Of a stretch of DNA of 64,000 nt, positions 30,135-35,646 are shown piece after piece; positions within the stretch are counted from its first letter, which is position 1, and each line of letters begins with the position of its first letter. This DNA comes from Candidatus Cybelea sp. (lineage in GTDB: Bacteria > Vulcanimicrobiota > Vulcanimicrobiia > Vulcanimicrobiales > Vulcanimicrobiaceae). Position numbers and translations under genes: made by a program. The DNA is taken from contig JBARKF010000310.1 of assembly GCA_049800655.1 (NCBI GenBank), positions 2,835 through 66,834 of the forward strand, read 5' to 3'. Under the pieces are notes generated by a model, which saw only the letters and a list, made by a program, of their open reading frames with translations, was not told the origin of the DNA and did no database searches.

Positions 30135-31558
30135 ATGCACAAACCATGGGCGTTTTTTTTGCTCGTCGTCGTAACAGGGAGCCTGACCGCGTGCGGTGCG
30201 TCATCATCCTCGGCGGTAACGCCGATGGCGCGGATTCGTCGTCCGCCGCTCGCGCGACGGGACTCCGGCAGCACGCCGATTCATCATATCGTCGTGGTCA
30301 TTCAAGAGAACCGTACCTTCAATGATTTTTTCGCAACGTTCCCGGGCGCAACCGGTGCGACTTCTGGTTACGAGCTCATCAACGGCGAGAGGCAGCTGAT
30401 CAATCTCAAGGAGGTCTCGCTCGTCGGGCAGCCCGCCTTGAATCATTCTTACAGTGGTTTCACCGCAGCCTGCAACTATAGCTACTCGTCGGGTTGCCAG
30501 ATGGACGGCTTCAATCTGATCAAGTATCCAAAGAATCCGCGGCTGGAGAAGACGGCGCCGTACGAATACGTCAATCCTGCCGATATCGCGCCGTATTGGA
30601 GTATGGCCGAGCAGTATGGACTCGCTAATGCGATGTTCACGACCCAAGGGAGCAACAGCTTCACGGGACACCAGGATCTCATTCGCGGCGCAACTTTTAT
30701 CGATCCCAACGACAGTATGATCGACAACCCGCGTGTCGCCGGCGCCTGGGGATGCGACTCCCAACCCAACACCAGGACGTCGCTGATAACGACGCAACTC
30801 AAATACGAAGAGGATGCCGGGCCGTTCCCGTGCACTCAGGATTTTCCGGAATATGGTGGATATCCTTACAAAACGCTGCGCGACTTGCTCGATGCGAAAC
30901 ATGTCTCCTGGAAATACTACACGCCTCAAATTCCAGACTCGGGCGCGATTTGGAACGCCTTCGACGTTATCTCGGCGGTGCGTTACGGCCCTGAATGGGG
31001 CACGAACGTGACTTGGCCGGAGACCAACGTCTTCAAAGACATCTCCGGCGGGACACTTCCGGCGGTCTCGTGGGTGATCCCCGATGGACGTAACTCGGAC
31101 CATCCCAACGGCGGGCAGGACGACGGGCCGTCCTGGGTCGCCAGCGTCGTCAACGCGATCGGAGAAAGCTCTATTGGAACTCGACGGCGATCATTGTCGT
31201 CTGGGACGACTGGGGCGGCTTTTACGATCCCGTTCCGCCCCCGTTTCCCCGCGACAATCAAGGCGGCCCGGGCTTCCGCGTTCCGATGCTGGCAATCTCT
31301 CCCTACACGAAGATCGGCTCCGGGAGTCAAGGTGGCTATATTTCGAACACCATTTACTACTTCGGCAGCATCCTACGATTCAGCGAAGACACGTTCGACC
31401 TCGGACGTCTCGGGACGACCGACGGCACGTCGAACAGCCTCGGCGACATGTTCGACTTCGACCAAGCCCCGCGGCAGTTCCATCAAATCCGCTCGACGTT
31501 CTCTCGCTCGTTCTTTCTCCATCAAAAGCCCTCCGGGATCCCCGTCGACACGGACTAG
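30135..31558 (+). pseudogene. Second phosphoesterase-family lipoprotein paralog, interrupted by a 1-nt frameshift near 31170
   Basis: Frame 0 (30135-31169) is collinear with the 27801 paralog up to AIGES. The rest (YWNSTAIIVVWDDWGGFYDPVPPPFPRDNQGGPGFRVPMLAISPYTKIGSGSQ...GIPVDTD*) continues in the -1 frame to TAG 31556-31558. AGC-TC-TAT-TGG here corresponds to AGC-CAG-TAT-TGG in the paralog. Confidence 0.8.
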
Positions 31559-31570
31559 GCATGGTTCACT

Positions 31571-31742
31571 GCCAAGGCCAGGTGGGAGGCCCGCGCTGCT
31601 GAGCTTTTGTCGCATTCGTGCCAAGGCCAGGTGGGAGGCCCGCGCTGCTGAGCTTTTGTCGCATTCGTGCCAAGGCCAGGTGGGAGGCCTGCGTTGCTGA
31701 GCTTTTGTCGCATTCGTGCCAAGGCCAGGTAGGAAGCCCGCG
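31571..31742. repeat. Tandem direct repeat, 49-bp unit x 3.5
   Basis: The unit GCCAAGGCCAGGTGGGAGGCCCGCGCTGCTGAGCTTTTGTCGCATTCGT starts at 31571, 31620, 31669 (2 substitutions) and 31718 (truncated and diverged after about 25 bp). There are no unique spacers. Confidence 0.95.
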
Positions 31743-31752
31743 TCTTCCGCAC

Positions 31753-31784
31753 GAATGCGACAAAAGATTTATTATGTCGCATTC
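31753..31784. promoter_or_regulatory. 13-6-13 near-palindrome: candidate tyrosine-recombinase core site or operator overlapping the recombinase start codon
   Basis: GAATGCGACAAAA (31753-65), GATTTA (31766-71), TTATGTCGCATTC (31772-84). The arms are 12/13 reverse-complementary, and ATG 31774-76 lies in the right arm. The same half-site, TTTTGTCGCATTC, occurs once per 49-bp repeat upstream. Confidence 0.55.
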
Positions 31785-32727
31785 AGGGACCGTGAAGAAG
31801 CCTGCGCAGGGCAGCGAAGCTGCCAAGCCGGATCCGCTCGTCCGTGACCTGCGGGGCTACCTGCTGACCGAGCGCAAACGCAGCCCCTTAACGGTCGCCG
31901 CGTACGAGCGAGATCTGATGGAGTTCACCGCGTTTTTGCGGGAGACGGAAGCCTCGGCAGCGCTGCAGGCGGTGAAGCCGACGCAGATTCGGCAATATAT
32001 CGCGCACCTGTTCGACGCGCGTGGCTGCGATAGCCGAACCGTCTGCCGGAAGCTGTCGTCGATCCGCGCGCTCTATCGCTTTCTCAAGATCACGGGGATT
32101 CTCGAGAACGATCCCGCCGCGGCGATTCCCGGCCCCTCGGTCGCGAAAAAGCGCCCGGCGCCGCTCAAAGTCGACGAGGTCATGAAACTGCTGCGGACCT
32201 CGCTTGCCGGCCGGACGGATGCCGCCCGCCGGCGAGACAACGCCATCATGGAGCTTTTCTACGCCAGTGGGATGCGCCGAGCCGAGCTCGCCGGCGTACG
32301 GCTTGCCGACGTCGATCTCGCCGAGCGCACGATTCGCGTAACGGGAAAAGGCAACAAGGAGCGTTTGGTCGTGATCAACCGAGCGGCTGCAGATGCCATC
32401 GAAGCCTACCTGCGCGTCCGGCCGCGCAGCGCCGATCCCGCGCTCTTCCTGGGCCGCGGCGGCAAGGCGCTTACGCCGAAACACGTTTGGCGAATCTTCC
32501 GCGCGATCTATCAAATCAGCGGAGTTCAGAAGCACGCAAGCCCGCACACGCTGCGTCACTCGTTCGCTACGCATCTCGTGGAGAACGGCGTGGACCTCGA
32601 GACCGTCCGCGAACTGCTCGGGCACGAGAGTCTGGCGACGACCGGCGTCTATTTGCAGTTAGCGATGGGACATAAGCGGCGCGCGTACGACGAAGCGCAT
32701 CCGCGTGACCGCATGCCCGATCGCTAG
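31774..32727 (+). CDS. Tyrosine recombinase, XerC/XerD family
   Basis: A SAM-like N-domain (SPLTVAAYERDLMEFTAFL, IRALYRFL) precedes the catalytic region: ELFYASGMRRAEL, GKGNKERLV, HTLRHSFATHLVENGVDLETVRELLGHESLATTGVYLQL. The start was trimmed to ATG 31774, because the tracked extension reads through the tandem repeat. Confidence 0.88.
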   Translation: MSHSGTVKKPAQGSEAAKPDPLVRDLRGYLLTERKRSPLTVAAYERDLMEFTAFLRETEASAALQAVKPTQIRQYIAHLFDARGCDSRTVCRKLSSIRALYRFLKITGILENDPAAAIPGPSVAKKRPAPLKVDEVMKLLRTSLAGRTDAARRRDNAIMELFYASGMRRAELAGVRLADVDLAERTIRVTGKGNKERLVVINRAAADAIEAYLRVRPRSADPALFLGRGGKALTPKHVWRIFRAIYQISGVQKHASPHTLRHSFATHLVENGVDLETVRELLGHESLATTGVYLQLAMGHKRRAYDEAHPRDRMPDR

Positions 32728-32740
32728 CCCGCTGCGTTAT

Positions 32741-32965
32741 TTAACGGCGATTCCGACGTAGCAGTAGCCATTTTGTGTCCGGCCGGGCGCCCCTGACGAT
32801 CAGGCGGCCACCCGGGTGTCCCGTGGTTGCTACGGTTTGCGCTTCCATTGGATCTGGAGTTGGCGACGCTCCTATAACTCCCGGCGTGAGGCCCTGCTGC
32901 CAGGCCGTGCACGCCGCGAGAACGAGGCTGGATAAAATAGCGCAGAGTAGACGCTTAGTTCCCAT
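32741..32965 (-). CDS. Small hypothetical lipoprotein (74 aa)
   Basis: ATG lies 6 nt after GAGGAG. Signal plus lipobox MGTKRLLCAILSSLVLAAC. No family is recognised. Confidence 0.45.
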   Translation of the reverse strand: MGTKRLLCAILSSLVLAACTAWQQGLTPGVIGASPTPDPMEAQTVATTGHPGGRLIVRGARPDTKWLLLRRNRR

Positions 32966-33065: not shown

Positions 33066-34004
33066 CTAAACCCGCATCTTCTTCTGCCGGGACGCGTCGG
33101 CTTCGATCATGAAGCGCGCGAGCGCGGCGCCGATCGAGGCTCCGCCCGCGGCCTCGTAATATGGGTAGCCCGGCGACGGATTCGCTTCGAAGCAGAACCA
33201 CTCGCCCTCGTCGCTTCGCATCAGATCGATGCCGGCGAAATGCAGCCCGAGCATTCTCGTAAGCCGCCGGCAGCGCTGCGCCACGTCGGCCGGCAGCTCG
33301 GCCGGCGTTATTGTCGAGCGGCCGTAGCGATAATCGATCTGATCCGAGGCGATTTGAGCGGCGAAGACTCGATCGCCGAGCACGTGCGCTCGATAGTTCG
33401 TGCCCTTGACGGCCCGTTGAAAGAGCGTCGGGCACCACTGGACGTCGTCGATAAGGCCGCATTGCGCTTCGCCCAGCCGCCGCACGATGCTGCGGACGCC
33501 GCTCATCGACTTATAGACCGAGTCGGGATGCTGCACCAGAAAGGCACGCGCGGCTTCGGCGTCGTTGCAGAGGAGCGTCTCGGGGACCGCAAAGCCCGCC
33601 TGATGGATAACGCTCATTTGGTACGGTTTCGAGTTATTGGTGGCCGAAGGAGCGGAACGGTTGATCACGACCGCGTCGGAAGCGTCGAGCCACGCCGTCA
33701 GCTGCGCTTCGAACGCGGCCGCACGGATCACGGGGGGACTGTCGTGCGGCAAACCCCGCAGCTCGTCGTGCTGATAAAAGCTCAGGCCCCTCACGTACGC
33801 CACCGTGACGCCGGTGATGTCGATCGTCGCGCCTTCGACCGTCACCGTGCATCGTTCGCCGTTGGCGCCGTCAATGACGGAGTCGATCTCGCAGCGAGCG
33901 ATCTTCCGGTGATCGAAAAAAACGAACTCGGCGCCGGCCTGCGTGAGCGCCGCGCAAGCGATCGCCATCGGCGCGTCGTCCAGCGTCCCCCACAGAAAAA
34001 TCAA
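33066..34004 (-). CDS. ATP-grasp domain ligase (RimK / RiPP-maturase-like)
   Basis: 312 aa with a pre-ATP-grasp N-domain, VYKSMSG, NYRAHVLGDRVFAA, and the Mg-ATP site HFAGIDLMRSDEGEWFCFEANPSPGY (E-x-N). TTG start overlaps the upstream stop (TTGA). Confidence 0.75.
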   Translation of the reverse strand: MIFLWGTLDDAPMAIACAALTQAGAEFVFFDHRKIARCEIDSVIDGANGERCTVTVEGATIDITGVTVAYVRGLSFYQHDELRGLPHDSPPVIRAAAFEAQLTAWLDASDAVVINRSAPSATNNSKPYQMSVIHQAGFAVPETLLCNDAEAARAFLVQHPDSVYKSMSGVRSIVRRLGEAQCGLIDDVQWCPTLFQRAVKGTNYRAHVLGDRVFAAQIASDQIDYRYGRSTITPAELPADVAQRCRRLTRMLGLHFAGIDLMRSDEGEWFCFEANPSPGYPYYEAAGGASIGAALARFMIEADASRQKKMRV

Positions 34005-34705
34005 TGGCGCGGCACTTCCATAAAACGCGCGATCGCGGCGCGGTTCGCCGGTACGCTAACGTCGGGGACGAATGAAAGGTCGGCTAAAGCATATTCGTCT
34101 TCGCGCGTCGCGGCGAAGCGCAGACGAACGTATGGCATCTCGAAGGCGCGCGCAAGTGCCTGCGCGTATTCGCAAACCCGGCCGGGCAGGTCATCCTCGA
34201 CGATCGCATCCCCGATGACGGTCGCTCGTAGCCTCGGTCGTTCCGCCGCCTCGTCCGTCACGGGTAAGCCGTTTCGGATGCGCCCCGCCCAAACGGGAAT
34301 CCCCCAGCCGCGTGCAGCCTTCATCCATTCGATGCGATGCAAGCCAAGACCCGAGAGACTCTTCGGCGTCGGCGGGTTGAGTTTTTTGCAGCGCAACACC
34401 GTAAGCAAGTAGATGAAGAAGGCCCGCACTTCCGCGCAGACGTACTCGCGGTCGGCCGGTTCGACTTCGTAAAACTCTTGCGGCAGAAAGTACGCGACCG
34501 TTGTGACGACGCCGGTAATCTCGGTCGCACGAATCCGGACGCCGCCAATCGTCAGCTGCGCCGACGACAGGTCGCCGACGGAGACGGCGGCCTTGAAATT
34601 GCGGTGGAGCGTCGAAGCGGTGACTAATGAGGCGACGCCGGGCGAGAACGTCTCGATGAGATCGATCGCCGACTCATTAGCCACATTGCTTACGACAAGG
34701 ATCAA
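34001..34705 (-). CDS. Truncated/degenerate ATP-grasp paralog (N-terminal and central part only)
   Basis: 234 aa. Its layout parallels the N-terminal two thirds of the 33066 protein (ITGVVTTVAYFL vs ITGVTVAYVRGL; EVRAFFIYLL vs FEAQLTAWL). No E-x-N or nucleotide-binding C-terminal half was seen. TTG start 34705 overlaps the upstream stop. Confidence 0.55.
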   Translation of the reverse strand: MILVVSNVANESAIDLIETFSPGVASLVTASTLHRNFKAAVSVGDLSSAQLTIGGVRIRATEITGVVTTVAYFLPQEFYEVEPADREYVCAEVRAFFIYLLTVLRCKKLNPPTPKSLSGLGLHRIEWMKAARGWGIPVWAGRIRNGLPVTDEAAERPRLRATVIGDAIVEDDLPGRVCEYAQALARAFEMPYVRLRFAATREDEYALADLSFVPDVSVPANRAAIARFMEVPRH

Positions 34706-35646
34706 CTCTCCTCGGTCTGGTCGCCGCGCTCGCCGACCGGCGGCCGGTCCTCGCTCCGAATAAAGGCGCGCCCCATTGTCTGCAGGCCGACCTGCAACTG
34801 GCTGATGCGCGCATTGAGAGCCGCGATCTCGGCGACGATGAGCTCGGGATCGCCGATATCGCCCCAGCCCTGGGACTCCACCGACTCTTTGGGCCCTTTG
34901 AAGATCTCCGAGACCCACTTGCTCGTGAAGACGTCGCTGATGATTGGCTTATCGAAGTGTTCCTTCGTCTTGACGGGGTCTTTGTAAAGCGCCAACGCAT
35001 AGACGGTTTCGCCTTGGCCTGGCGTTAAGTTAGCGCCGCTGATGAGACTTGGCAGCGGCGATGGATTCGTGAGATCGGTCCATTGGTCGAAAAGCGCCGT
35101 CATGGGCAACGACATATAGGGACCGATGTTCGGATGATCGGCCGCGATCGTGTAGCCGCTCGAAGCGGTATCGACCCAGCCTTCGACGTTCGCTTCGGTG
35201 GTAAGCGTGCCGCCTGGATCCGGGCTGACGGTCACGAAATCGTTGTCGACTAACGCGCCAGTGCTCTCGTTGAAAGCGTCGATGACGGCGCCGCTGTCAC
35301 CGGGTCCGGGGGTGCCCCCGACTGGAACGTAAAGGTAAACGACGAGCACCGGACTCGTGCCGACGGTGCCCGGCGGCGGATATCCTCCGGGCTGATTCGT
35401 AAAGCGCGGCCCTTCGACCAAGCCGGAAACGTTGGTAAGAGCCCACTGCAAGTCGAGCGACCCGACGTCATACGTCAGGAACGGCAGTAACGGCTGGAAG
35501 GACGTGCCGGGCGCGAGCGTCTGGGGTGGCGACGGGTTGAGTCCTGGGATCGGGGTAAAGCCGCCGTAGGAAGTCGTCGCGCGAGGCTGGCGCGTGTGGG
35601 CGCCGGAGGCGCCGAAATAAACGTATTGGGTCGTGAGTAATGGCAT
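34702..35646 (-). CDS. Unknown protein (314 aa), Pro/Gly/Thr-rich with a C-terminal amphipathic helix and acidic tail
   Basis: ATG lies 8 nt after AAGGA. There is no signal peptide or TM segment. The helix PELIVAEIAALNARISQLQVGLQ is followed by the tail SEDRPPVGERGDQTEES. No family is recognised. Confidence 0.6.
   Translation of the reverse strand: MPLLTTQYVYFGASGAHTRQPRATTSYGGFTPIPGLNPSPPQTLAPGTSFQPLLPFLTYDVGSLDLQWALTNVSGLVEGPRFTNQPGGYPPPGTVGTSPVLVVYLYVPVGGTPGPGDSGAVIDAFNESTGALVDNDFVTVSPDPGGTLTTEANVEGWVDTASSGYTIAADHPNIGPYMSLPMTALFDQWTDLTNPSPLPSLISGANLTPGQGETVYALALYKDPVKTKEHFDKPIISDVFTSKWVSEIFKGPKESVESQGWGDIGDPELIVAEIAALNARISQLQVGLQTMGRAFIRSEDRPPVGERGDQTEES

What the first reader, a model, noticed from the sequence alone, without database searches (positions are those of the whole stretch)
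33066..35646. Three-gene operon: unknown P/G/T-rich protein with acidic tail, truncated ATP-grasp paralog, and intact ATP-grasp ligase
Three minus-strand genes are chained by TTGA start/stop overlaps at 34705/34702 and 34004/34001. Gene 1 (314 aa) matches nothing I recognise. It has no signal peptide or TM segment, a Pro/Gly/Thr-rich body, an amphipathic helix (PELIVAEIAALNARISQLQVGLQ) and an acidic C-terminal tail (GERGDQTEES). Gene 3 is an ATP-grasp enzyme (VYKSMSG; HFAGIDLMRSDEGEWFCFEANPSPGY). Its N-terminal pre-domain resembles RimK-type and RiPP-maturase-type ligases. Gene 2 parallels the first two thirds of gene 3 but apparently lacks the nucleotide-binding half, so it could be a non-catalytic partner or substrate-recognition subunit. 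ATP-grasp ligases of this kind ligate amino acids to protein C-termini (RimK on ribosomal protein S6) or form macrocycles in peptides (graspetides). One testable idea is a protein-tail modification system acting on gene 1. A small lipoprotein gene (32741-32965) follows 100 bp downstream. Caveat: 4-nt overlaps are common throughout this genome. They support co-translation but are not unusual here.
Basis: partly seen in the sequence, partly recalled or inferred. Interest (0 to 1): 0.7.

Follow-up and report, generated by a model that had tools for sequence, protein, structure and literature searches.

The report
ATP-grasp pair modifying a tagged protein
A conserved three-gene module: an active ATP-grasp ligase and a catalytically dead, shrunken copy of it most likely install lysine-to-acid cross-links in the lysine-rich C-terminal tail of the 314-residue protein encoded just upstream. 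It looks like a protein-sized, so far undescribed relative of the graspetide peptide-cyclising systems.

Summary
Three minus-strand genes (g1 34702-35646, g2 34001-34705, g3 33066-34004) are linked by TTGA overlaps in a Candidatus Cybelea MAG. g3 is an intact graspetide-type ATP-grasp macrocyclase homolog: closest solved structure PsnB, best NCBIfam model TIGR04187 but far below its cutoff. g2 has no sequence-family match, but its AlphaFold model matches graspetide macrocyclases (MdnC, TM 0.72). It aligns colinearly with g3, lacks the ATP-lid region and the DYR loop, and has lost the Mg-binding residues, so it is a pseudo-enzyme. g1 is a Lys-poor beta-sandwich domain of unknown function followed by a C-terminal module: Lys/Asp/Glu repeats in a 4-5 residue register, an amphipathic helix, and an invariant F-[IV]-[KR]-x3-R-P-x-V-G motif. 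This module, not the N-domain, travels with g2+g3. It sits on an unrelated N-domain in Rhizobium mesoamericanum and two other loci, always followed by g2/g3-like genes. N-domain paralogs without it lack the pair. Most likely the g2/g3 heterodimer reads the C-terminal motif as a natural follower and forms Lys-Asp/Glu isopeptides, as in corallotide. I rate it a new variant of a known kind. Nothing has been tested experimentally.

The parts
34702..35646 (-). g1: 314-aa predicted substrate protein (NCBI: hypothetical protein WA431_18070)
   Evidence: ORF. 89 homolog clusters, all unnamed. Exact-sequence cluster look-up.
34984..35646 (-). g1 N-terminal domain (aa 1-221): beta-sandwich of unknown function, with no Lys in this sequence
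   Evidence: AF2 pLDDT mostly 84-95. No convincing PDB or BFVD fold match, TM below 0.2. The domain occurs in 477 representative clusters, most with other C-termini. Lys counts.
34846..34983 (-). g1 Lys/acid repeat linker (aa 222-267). It holds all 7 Lys of the protein. Candidate sites: KEHFD, KPIISD, KWVSE, KGPKE, KESVE. Predicted core region.
   Evidence: K to D/E spacing is enriched at +1, +4 and +5 and depleted at +2. AF2 predicts it disordered or low-confidence.
34774..34845 (-). g1 amphipathic helix (aa 268-291), with a conserved L-x-x-R-[IL]-x-x-L-E pattern
   Evidence: AF2 helix 267-292. Alignments.
34732..34773 (-). g1 C-terminal signature GRAFIRSEDRPPVG (aa 292-305). Family pattern F-[IV]-[KR]-x3-R-P-x-V-G. 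Predicted follower (recognition) motif.
   Evidence: F, R, P, V and G are invariant across type A and type B proteins. The motif is present on an unrelated N-domain in L021, L024 and L025.
34705..34731 (-). g1 tail ERGDQTEES: acidic here, variable and mostly basic in homologs
34001..34705 (-). g2: 234-aa degenerate ATP-grasp paralog (pseudo-enzyme), predicted partner subunit of g3
   Evidence: No family hit. AF2 pLDDT 81.5, pTM 0.81. Foldseek: MdnC E 2e-9, TMq 0.72-0.74, then PruB, CdnC, MdnB, PsnB, RimK. Colinear hhalign to g3 with internal deletions and loss of the GIDL and FE.N residues.
33066..34004 (-). g3: 312-aa active graspetide-type ATP-grasp ligase
   Evidence: TIGR04187 E 4e-37 over the full length. 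PsnB 7drm E 1e-25. Y-K-S, F-Q, N-Y-R, D-Y-R-Y and the key residues of the G-I-D-L and F-E-x-N-P-S-P motifs are invariant or nearly so in 17 orthologs.

Best explanation
The three genes form a self-contained protein-modification module of the graspetide type. g3 is the catalytic ATP-grasp ligase. g2 is an obligate, catalytically dead ATP-grasp paralog. It probably takes the place of the second subunit of the usual macrocyclase homodimer, giving a fixed asymmetric heterodimer. g1 is the substrate. Its C-terminal motif (amphipathic helix plus F-[IV]-[KR]-x3-R-P-x-V-G) would act as a natural follower sequence that docks on the enzyme. The ligase would then phosphorylate Asp/Glu side chains in the upstream Lys/acid repeat tract, and nearby Lys epsilon-amines (register about i to i+4/5) would attack them. 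The result would be several small side-chain macrolactams (isopeptide 'staples') in the tail of an otherwise folded protein. Shown here: gene linkage, the fold and residue status of g2 and g3, the modular architecture of g1, and the portability of the C-module. Inferred: the heterodimer, the docking role of the motif, the Lys-acid chemistry, and intramolecular rather than intermolecular linkage. The biological role of the modified protein is unknown. No protease or exporter is conserved, so it may be an in-situ protein modification rather than a secreted RiPP.
For: (1) Linkage. g1-g2-g3 recur in the same order with gaps of -4 to +20 nt in Vulcanimicrobiota (Eremiobacterota), Opitutaceae, Acidobacteriaceae, Parafilimonas, Bacteroidales and Gallionella MAGs. 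They are the only conserved genes across these loci. (2) The C-module tracks the enzyme pair; the N-domain does not. L021 (Rhizobium mesoamericanum), L024 and L025 carry an unrelated His-rich N-domain with the same repeat-helix-FIKxxxRPxVG tail, followed by g2-like and g3-like genes. N-domain paralogs with other C-termini (L002, L026) have no ATP-grasp genes. A DNA scan for the motif alone returned 31 loci, and 29 have g2 immediately downstream. (3) g3 keeps every catalytic and graspetide-specific residue tested, including the equivalents of PsnB Arg213 and the D(F/W)R loop. g2 has the same fold but lacks the lid and the Mg ligands. (4) No small ORF is conserved, and the intergenic spaces in the window are 60 and 100 nt. 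(5) Lys is concentrated in the module (median 14 K) and nearly absent from the N-domain (median 1 K; 0 in the window protein). K to D/E spacing is strongly non-random at +4 and +5. (6) Precedents. Corallotide CorB (a TIGR04187-type enzyme) makes Lys-Asp isopeptides at five KxxxD repeats of a roughly 200-aa precursor and needs a partner protein. MyxF lactamises (KxxE)n, and MyxD2 works only in complex with paralogous ATP-grasps. PsnB acts as an asymmetric dimer with one productive subunit. A graspetide leader still works when moved behind the core.
Against: There is no experimental evidence of any modification. I could not run an AF-multimer model. Profile similarity between g2 and g3 is weak (hhalign E 0.0013, probability 18%), so the residue-level mapping of g2 rests mainly on fold. 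The spacing statistics come from related sequences and include a strong +1 signal, so the actual Lys-acid pairing is undetermined. Lys- and Glu-rich tracts could also simply be a charged single helix or linker. Two related loci (L037, L046) carry g1 with an intact C-module but no g2/g3 within 8-14 kb. g3 scores far below the TIGR04187 cutoff (128 vs 350 bits). The acidic residue in 'DRP' and the Lys in 'FIK' are replaceable, so they are not the reacting residues.
Confidence: 0.55

Rival explanations
1. The chemistry is the same but intermolecular. The pair cross-links g1 molecules to each other (a Lys of one tail to an Asp/Glu of another), perhaps templated by the amphipathic helix acting as a coiled coil, building covalent oligomers or a matrix.
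For: There is a conserved amphipathic helix next to the repeat tract. Many Lys and acids occur per tail. Engineered graspetide synthetases can cross-link protein dimers (text on ThfB).
Against: All characterised natural graspetide enzymes make intramolecular rings. The 4-5 residue Lys-acid register matches the intramolecular KxxxD rings of corallotide.
Confidence: 0.12
2. RimK-like tailing. g3 adds free amino acids, such as Glu, to the C-terminus or to side chains of g1, with g2 as a specificity subunit.
For: g3 has weak RimK-family similarity (Pfam RimK E 0.002, rimK_fam E 3e-10, PHROG 'S6 glutaminyl transferase'). The window protein ends in an acidic tail.
Against: Graspetide models score much higher than RimK models. 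The graspetide-specific Arg and DYR loop are conserved. The tail is not conserved in charge, length or last residue.
Confidence: 0.1
3. g1 is not the substrate. It is a scaffold, regulator or cargo that binds the g2/g3 complex through its C-terminal motif, and the ligase acts on an unlinked peptide, protein or metabolite.
For: Makarova et al. could not find precursors for their ATP-grasp branches 7 and 8 and proposed substrates encoded elsewhere. Two loci have g1 without g2/g3.
Against: The Lys/acid repeat tract co-varies in presence with the enzyme pair on two unrelated N-domains. Lys is excluded from the rest of the protein. No other gene is conserved nearby.
Confidence: 0.15
4. Ester rather than amide linkages: Thr/Ser-Asp/Glu lactones, as in plesiocin or microviridin.
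For: The closest solved homolog, PsnB, makes esters. The window linker has a few Ser and Thr.
Against: Ser and Thr are few and unconserved in the linkers, whereas Lys is abundant and in register with the acids.
Confidence: 0.05

Closest known systems
Corallotide system of Corallococcus (CorA/CorB/CorC/CorD; graspetide group 15; Carter et al. 2026, PMC13097080)
   Same: It has an unusually large precursor with repeated K-x3-D motifs that a TIGR04187-type ATP-grasp converts to Lys-Asp isopeptide rings. The synthetase depends on a co-encoded partner protein.
   Different: The corallotide partner is a 2OG oxygenase, not a dead ATP-grasp. CorA has an N-terminal leader domain and no folded cargo domain. 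A hydroxylase and a beta-lactamase are part of that cluster, and it is restricted to one genus. Here the recognition motif is C-terminal, the substrate carries a 220-aa folded domain of two alternative kinds, and the module is spread over at least five phyla.
Myxomiditide pathway (MyxF, MyxD1, MyxD2, MyxC; PMC12848669)
   Same: An ATP-grasp forms lactams on tandem (KxxE)n motifs. One ATP-grasp paralog (MyxD2) is inactive alone and works in a complex with paralogs.
   Different: All Myx ligases are full-length and catalytic in complex. The substrate is a short microviridin-type peptide with an N-terminal leader.
PsnB/PsnA (plesiocin) and MdnC/MdnB (microviridin) macrocyclases
   Same: These are the closest solved structures to g3 by sequence (7drm, E 1e-25) and to g2 by fold (5ig9, TM 0.72). 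The catalytic Lys, the Arg213 equivalent and the D(F/W)R-type loop are shared. PsnB works as an asymmetric dimer, and its leader uses an F-I containing motif (LFIEDL).
   Different: They are homodimers of active subunits acting on short precursors with N-terminal leaders and forming mostly ester rings.
'Branch 8' graspetide-type ATP-grasp loci of Makarova et al. 2022 (PMC8939145)
   Same: These loci encode an ATP-grasp plus a truncated, catalytically inactive ATP-grasp, and no small precursor could be found.
   Different: [quoted passage not shown] Here g2 is colinear to the C-terminus with internal deletions, and no peptidase is conserved. Identity of the two groups could not be tested: the stored supplement is cut and no matching sequences were found.
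RimK / ribosomal protein S6 glutamylation
   Same: An ATP-grasp ligase acts on a full-size protein encoded in the genome.
   Different: RimK adds free Glu to a conserved C-terminal Glu. g3 is much closer to macrocyclases, and the g1 tail is not conserved.

Membership tests
ATP-grasp superfamily (active enzyme): g3 | ATP-binding Lys, hinge Gln/Glu, Arg, and Mg-binding Asp and Glu-x-Asn in the C-domain | tested here: met
   Y-K-S, F-Q, N-Y-R and the key residues of the G-I-D-L and F-E-x-N-P-S-P motifs are invariant or nearly so in 17 orthologs. Positions were mapped through the PsnB alignment.
Graspetide macrocyclase clade: g3 | Conserved Arg that recognises the ring-forming carboxylate (PsnB Arg213) and a D(F/W)R loop | tested here: met
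   The R of g3 N-Y-R aligns with PsnB Arg213. g3 D-Y-R aligns with PsnB D-F-R, with Tyr in place of Phe/Trp.
Graspetide macrocyclase clade: g3 | Score above the curated cutoff of a graspetide maturase model (TIGR04187, TIGR04184 or TIGR04185) | tested here: not met
   128 bits against a cutoff of 350; 72 against 475; 71 against 425. This is a distinct, unmodelled subfamily.
Graspetide (RiPP) biosynthetic gene cluster | An adjacent short precursor peptide with an N-terminal leader and a core bearing donor and acceptor residues | tested here: not met
   No conserved small ORF. The only conserved neighbour is a 296-339 aa protein whose conserved motif is C-terminal.
Graspetide (RiPP) biosynthetic gene cluster | Demonstrated ATP-dependent dehydrations (omega-ester or omega-amide rings) in the precursor | not testable with these tools
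   Needs co-expression and mass spectrometry.
Corallotide-like (group 15) systems | Repeated K-x3-D/E donor-acceptor motifs in a large precursor | tested here: met
   K to D/E is enriched at +4 and +5 (z 24 and 13 in 86 linkers; z 2.7 and 7.8 in 9 divergent linkers). Window sites: KEHFD, KWVSE, KGPKE, KESVE, KPIISD.
Corallotide-like (group 15) systems | Co-occurring 2OG-Fe(II) oxygenase and beta-lactamase | tested here: not met
   Absent from the window and from most loci. Only the Acidobacteriaceae locus L003 has a PF13640 gene nearby.
RimK family | Score above the rimK_fam or PRK10446 cutoff, and a substrate with a conserved C-terminal Glu tail | tested here: not met
   40 bits against 143; 24 against 331. 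The tail is variable and mostly basic.
ATP-grasp fold, catalytically inactive: g2 | ATP-grasp architecture with loss of nucleotide- and Mg-binding elements | tested here: met
   Foldseek gives TMq 0.72-0.74 to MdnC, probability 1.0. hhalign is colinear over g2 1-234 and g3 1-304, with g2 lacking the region around g3 155-200 and the DYR loop. g2 has R-L-R-F and A-D-L where g3 has G-I-D-L and F-E-A-N. The sequence-level significance is weak.
Makarova 2022 'branch 8' | Placement of g3 in that branch of their ATP-grasp tree | not testable with these tools
   The stored supplementary tables and FASTA are cut. No Branch_8 rows and no matching motifs were found.

The most novel reading that the evidence does not exclude
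A natural, portable 'staple tag'. In this reading, a C-terminal cassette (Lys/acid repeats, a helix, and an FIKxxxRPxVG follower) can be fused to unrelated folded domains. It directs an ATP-grasp/pseudo-ATP-grasp heterodimer to install multiple isopeptide rings in a full-size protein. That would be graspetide chemistry used as a protein post-translational modification rather than for making a secreted peptide, with the first obligate pseudo-enzyme subunit in this enzyme class.
Probability: 0.4. Interest if true: 0.75.

Novelty: new variant of a known kind. Interest (0 to 1): 0.62.

Why it matters
Graspetide enzymes are being engineered to cyclise peptides and proteins. In 2026, partner-protein dependence, large repeat precursors and artificial C-terminal leaders were each reported as novelties. 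This module appears to combine all three naturally: a folded roughly 300-aa substrate, a C-terminal recognition motif, and a dedicated dead paralog as partner. It is spread across at least five phyla, including a cultured Rhizobium. If confirmed, it would extend side-chain macrocyclisation from RiPPs to ordinary proteins. It would also give a compact genetically encoded tag and enzyme pair for protein stapling, and a clean case for studying why these ligases work as asymmetric dimers. Finally, it would assign a first functional context to a widespread uncharacterised domain (477 representative clusters).

Tried and rejected
- **Sequence-family searches on g1 and g2.** Pfam, NCBIfam, PHROGs, PADLOC and PDB sequence searches returned nothing.
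- **Fold searches on the g1 model.** Foldseek against PDB and BFVD gave only low-TM beta-sandwich noise such as SHIRT domains, pilins and phage proteins, so I assign no function to the N-domain.
- **Direct g2/g3 comparison.** BLASTP and small-alignment hhalign were not significant, and global hhalign failed. Only the larger alignments gave a weak colinear hit.
- **Tyrosinase reading of the type-B N-domain.** By eye, its His motifs look like a type-3 copper (tyrosinase) site. Pfam, NCBIfam and PDB searches did not confirm this, so I keep it only as a lead.
- **Equating the family with published groups.** I compared it with Makarova's branch 8 and with RODEO groups 34, 35, 41 and 42. The latter are Streptomyces, Nostoc or Komeilibacteria systems with different precursors. 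Branch 8 could not be checked because the supplements are cut.
- **Profile scan for the C-module.** I replaced it with a degenerate DNA pattern scan.
- **Plasmid search.** A search with the Rhizobium g2-like protein found no match.
- **Other neighbours.** The lipoprotein downstream of g3, and any protease or exporter, are rejected as parts of the system because none is conserved.
- **Expression signals.** The promoter and terminator scan was uninformative.
Full report
**1. The observation.**
The window comes from a Candidatus Cybelea sp. MAG (Vulcanimicrobiota, formerly Eremiobacterota). The g1 product is 100% identical to NCBI 'hypothetical protein WA431_18070'. Each junction is a TTGA start/stop overlap. 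The mechanical ORF list also offers a 305-aa reading of g2 from GTG 34918. Homologs begin (M/L)ILVxSNVANE, and in other loci g2 starts 9-20 nt after the g1 stop, so the short reading is right.

**2. g3 is an active graspetide-type ATP-grasp.**
- Pfam sees only a weak RimK match, E 0.002.
- NCBIfam gives a full-length match to TIGR04187 (ATP-grasp ribosomal peptide maturase, SAV_5884 family), E 4e-37. MvdD and MvdC follow at about 1e-20, and rimK_fam at 3e-10. All are below their curated cutoffs.
- The closest solved structures are PsnB (7drm, E 1e-25), a protein deposited as an 'MvdD-like pre-ATP grasp domain-containing protein' (9bou; listed as PruB), CdnC, MdnC and MdnB. RimK is far weaker.
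- I mapped residues through that alignment and the PsnB paper. g3 keeps the ATP-binding Lys (Y-K-S), the F-Q hinge, the Arg equivalent to PsnB Arg213 (N-Y-R), a D-Y-R loop at the D(F/W)R position, and the Mg ligands (G-I-D-L and F-E-x-N). The hallmark residues are invariant, or nearly so, in 17 orthologs.
- g3 is therefore a working enzyme of the macrocyclase clade, but belongs to a subfamily that no curated model covers.

**3. g2 is a degenerate ATP-grasp.**
- g2 has no hit in any sequence library or in the PDB sequence search. BLASTP against g3 is not significant.
- An AlphaFold2 model built from 31 homologs is confident: pLDDT 81.5, pTM 0.81.
- Foldseek places it squarely among graspetide macrocyclases: MdnC E 2e-9 with TMq 0.72-0.74, then PruB, CdnC, MdnB and PsnB, with RimK and LysX behind.
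- With larger alignments, hhalign gives a weak but fully colinear alignment of g2 1-234 to g3 1-304 (E 0.0013, probability 18%). g2 lacks roughly g3 155-200, the segment carrying the Y-K-S loop and the F-Q hinge. It also lacks the D-Y-R loop. Where g3 has G-I-D-L and F-E-A-N, g2 has R-L-R-F and A-D-L.
- So g2 is a shrunken pseudo-enzyme. It is colinear with g3 to the C-terminus, not a copy of 'the first two thirds'.
- Its most conserved stretch is PQEFYYIEPADREYVCAE... In the hhalign mapping this lies opposite the N-domain helices, which in PsnB form the dimer centre and touch the core peptide. This is an inference, not a test.

**4. g1 is modular.**
- Eighty-nine homolog clusters exist, all unnamed.
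- Residues 1-221 form a conserved domain predicted as a beta-sandwich with high confidence. It has no convincing structural neighbour in PDB or BFVD.
- Residues 222-267 are a variable-length Lys/Asp/Glu-rich tract. Then come an amphipathic helix (268-291), the signature G-x-A-F-I-[KR]-x-x-[DE]-R-P-x-V-G (292-305), and a short tail.
Elsewhere the tail is basic or nearly absent.
- All seven Lys of the window protein lie in 222-253, and the N-domain has none. Across the family the N-domain has a median of 1 Lys against 14 in the C-terminal part.
- In the linkers, Asp/Glu follow Lys preferentially at +1, +4 and +5 and are avoided at +2. In 86 linkers the z-scores are 24, 24 and 13. In nine divergent linkers, +1 and +5 were reached by none of 2000 shuffles, and +4 by 15 of 2000.
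- These sequences are related, so the z-scores are inflated. The exact Lys-acid pairing cannot be read from them.

**5. Linkage, and what it is linked to.**
- The trio recurs with the same order and tight spacing in MAGs of Vulcanimicrobiota, Opitutaceae, Acidobacteriaceae, Parafilimonas, Bacteroidales and Gallionella. Identity between phyla is 55-65%, which together with nearby recombinase genes suggests lateral spread.
- All-against-all clustering of flanking ORFs finds no other conserved neighbour. In particular there is no lipoprotein, protease or transporter.
- The decisive observation came from distant g3 homologs. In Rhizobium mesoamericanum (L021) and two metagenomic loci (L024, L025), the upstream protein has an unrelated His-rich N-domain but the same C-terminal cassette.
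  - L021 carries repeats such as KAIIID, KPHIID and KHIFD.
  - L025 carries KEFVKEHG five times.
  - The repeats are followed by a helix and then SPFIKPFMRP[ED]VG or GQTFIRAAERPTVG. g2-like (27-28% identity) and g3-like (41%) genes follow.
- Conversely, the g1 N-domain is widespread (477 representative clusters) and mostly carries other C-termini, such as a Cys-containing helical hairpin or signal-peptide forms with Cys-rich ends. The two such paralogs whose context I examined have no ATP-grasp genes.
- A metagenome scan with a DNA pattern for the C-terminal motif alone returned 31 loci, and 29 have g2 directly downstream as far as the contig extends. The two exceptions are related to each other (L037, L046). 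There an argG-like gene follows g1, and no g2/g3 lies within 8-14 kb.
- So the C-terminal cassette, not the N-domain, co-inherits with the enzyme pair.

**6. Mechanism.**
The best-supported reading is that the cassette is both recognition element and substrate.
- *Precedents.*
  - Corallotide CorB, a TIGR04187-type ligase, forms Lys-Asp isopeptide rings at five K-x3-D repeats (KIVAD, KVMDD...) of a roughly 200-aa precursor, and needs a partner protein for activity.
  - MyxF lactamises (KxxE)n, and MyxD2 works only in complex with paralogous ATP-grasps.
[quoted passage not shown] Its leader docks through a Phe in an L-F-I-E-D-L motif.
  - The fuscimiditide leader still directs cyclisation when moved behind the core. 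Its key element there is R-P-F-G.
- *Proposal.* I propose a g2/g3 heterodimer in which g2 replaces the non-productive subunit. The helix plus F-I-[KR]...R-P-x-V-G would dock as a natural follower, and Lys-Asp/Glu macrolactams would form stepwise in the repeat tract.
- *Leads.* The resemblances of F-I to LFIEDL and of R-P-x-V-G to RPFG are leads, not tests.
- *Non-reacting residues.* The Lys of F-I-K and the acid of D-R-P are replaceable (R in the window; M in L021), so they are not the reacting residues.
- *Role.* No protease or exporter is conserved, so the product may be a modified protein rather than a released peptide. Its biological role is open.

**7. Rivals.**
- Intermolecular cross-linking of g1.
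- RimK-like amino-acid addition.
- g1 as a non-substrate partner.
- Ester rather than amide rings.

Each is weighed in its own section of this report. None is excluded without mass spectrometry.

**8. Comparison with what is known, and novelty.**
The enzyme class, the Lys-acid repeat logic, partner dependence, inactive ATP-grasp paralogs in precursor-less loci (Makarova 2022 'branch 8') and C-terminal leaders have each been described separately. I found no description of this family. It is not among the RODEO groups I could inspect. All members are annotated as hypothetical or generic ATP-grasp proteins. The combination is new in four respects:
- The substrate is a folded protein of about 300 aa with interchangeable N-domains.
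- The recognition motif is a natural follower.
- The obligate partner is an internally deleted pseudo-ATP-grasp.
- No maturation or export genes are present.

I rate it a new variant of a known kind, of solid but not exceptional interest, resting entirely on computational evidence.

Noticed in passing
window 31570-31742: A 49-bp tandem repeat, 3.5 copies at 95% identity, overlaps the 5' end of a tyrosine recombinase ORF (31618-32727; PF00589 + PF02899). It lies immediately downstream of the trio and the lipoprotein gene.
   Followed up: partly
window 30135-31700: A lipoprotein-type phosphoesterase ORF (PF04185) matches the profile only up to position 275 of 356. The last ~175 residues are Arg/Ser/Pro-rich with no match, so a frameshift or pseudogene is possible. 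The alternative-frame ORF 31286-31558 gave no Pfam hit.
   Followed up: partly
L020:6001-6329 (Eremiobacterota chromosome OY969421): A remnant in which g1 residues 1-41 are joined directly to g3 residues 240-307. It looks like a deletion scar of the whole module.
   Followed up: no
L003:4661-5323 (Acidobacteriaceae MAG): A 2OG-Fe(II) oxygenase (PF13640, the Pfam family of corallotide CorC) is encoded divergently about 680 nt upstream of the trio. It is not conserved in other loci.
   Followed up: partly
L021:4469-5311, L024:2393-3283, L025:826-1734: The type-B substrates have a His-rich N-domain whose motifs (FFQFHRDLMNEF, IHNWIHGAV, FYKIHGLVDLWW) look by eye like a type-3 copper site. Pfam, NCBIfam and PDB searches do not confirm this. 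In L024 the neighbours are a multicopper oxidase, a tyrosinase and a Cu-ATPase.
   Followed up: partly
L037 and L046 (JGI peat/soil metagenome contigs): g1 homologs with an intact C-terminal cassette are followed by an argG-like gene (MKIVLAYSGGLDTSVI...), and no g2/g3 lies within 8-14 kb. These are the only exceptions to the linkage.
   Followed up: partly
JGI 3300041966 contig (no DNA available): A g2-like (231 aa) plus g3-like (305 aa) pair is preceded by a 1011-aa protein. This may be a third, much larger carrier of the cassette.
   Followed up: no
window 34984-35646 and family-wide: The g1 N-domain is almost free of Lys: 0 in the window protein, with a family median of 1 in about 220 aa. 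This holds even in low-GC Bacteroidota members. Paralogs without the cassette have a median of 3.
   Followed up: yes
P0296, P0309, P0313, P0338 and others: Many distant members of the g1 N-domain family carry signal peptides and Cys-rich C-termini. The domain is therefore probably extracellular in those proteins, which raises the question of where g1 itself acts.
   Followed up: no
L023:6960-8225: A frameshifted copy of the trio lies next to a DUF6624 gene and an Hcp (T6SS) gene. DUF6624 was reported as frequent in several graspetide groups.
   Followed up: no
L005:6940-8589 and L014:6948-7644: g2 is interrupted by a frameshift in two long-read MAGs. In L005 the shifted frame reads through into g3, and the database holds a 542-aa fused protein (P0175). 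This is probably a sequencing error, but it was not checked.
   Followed up: no
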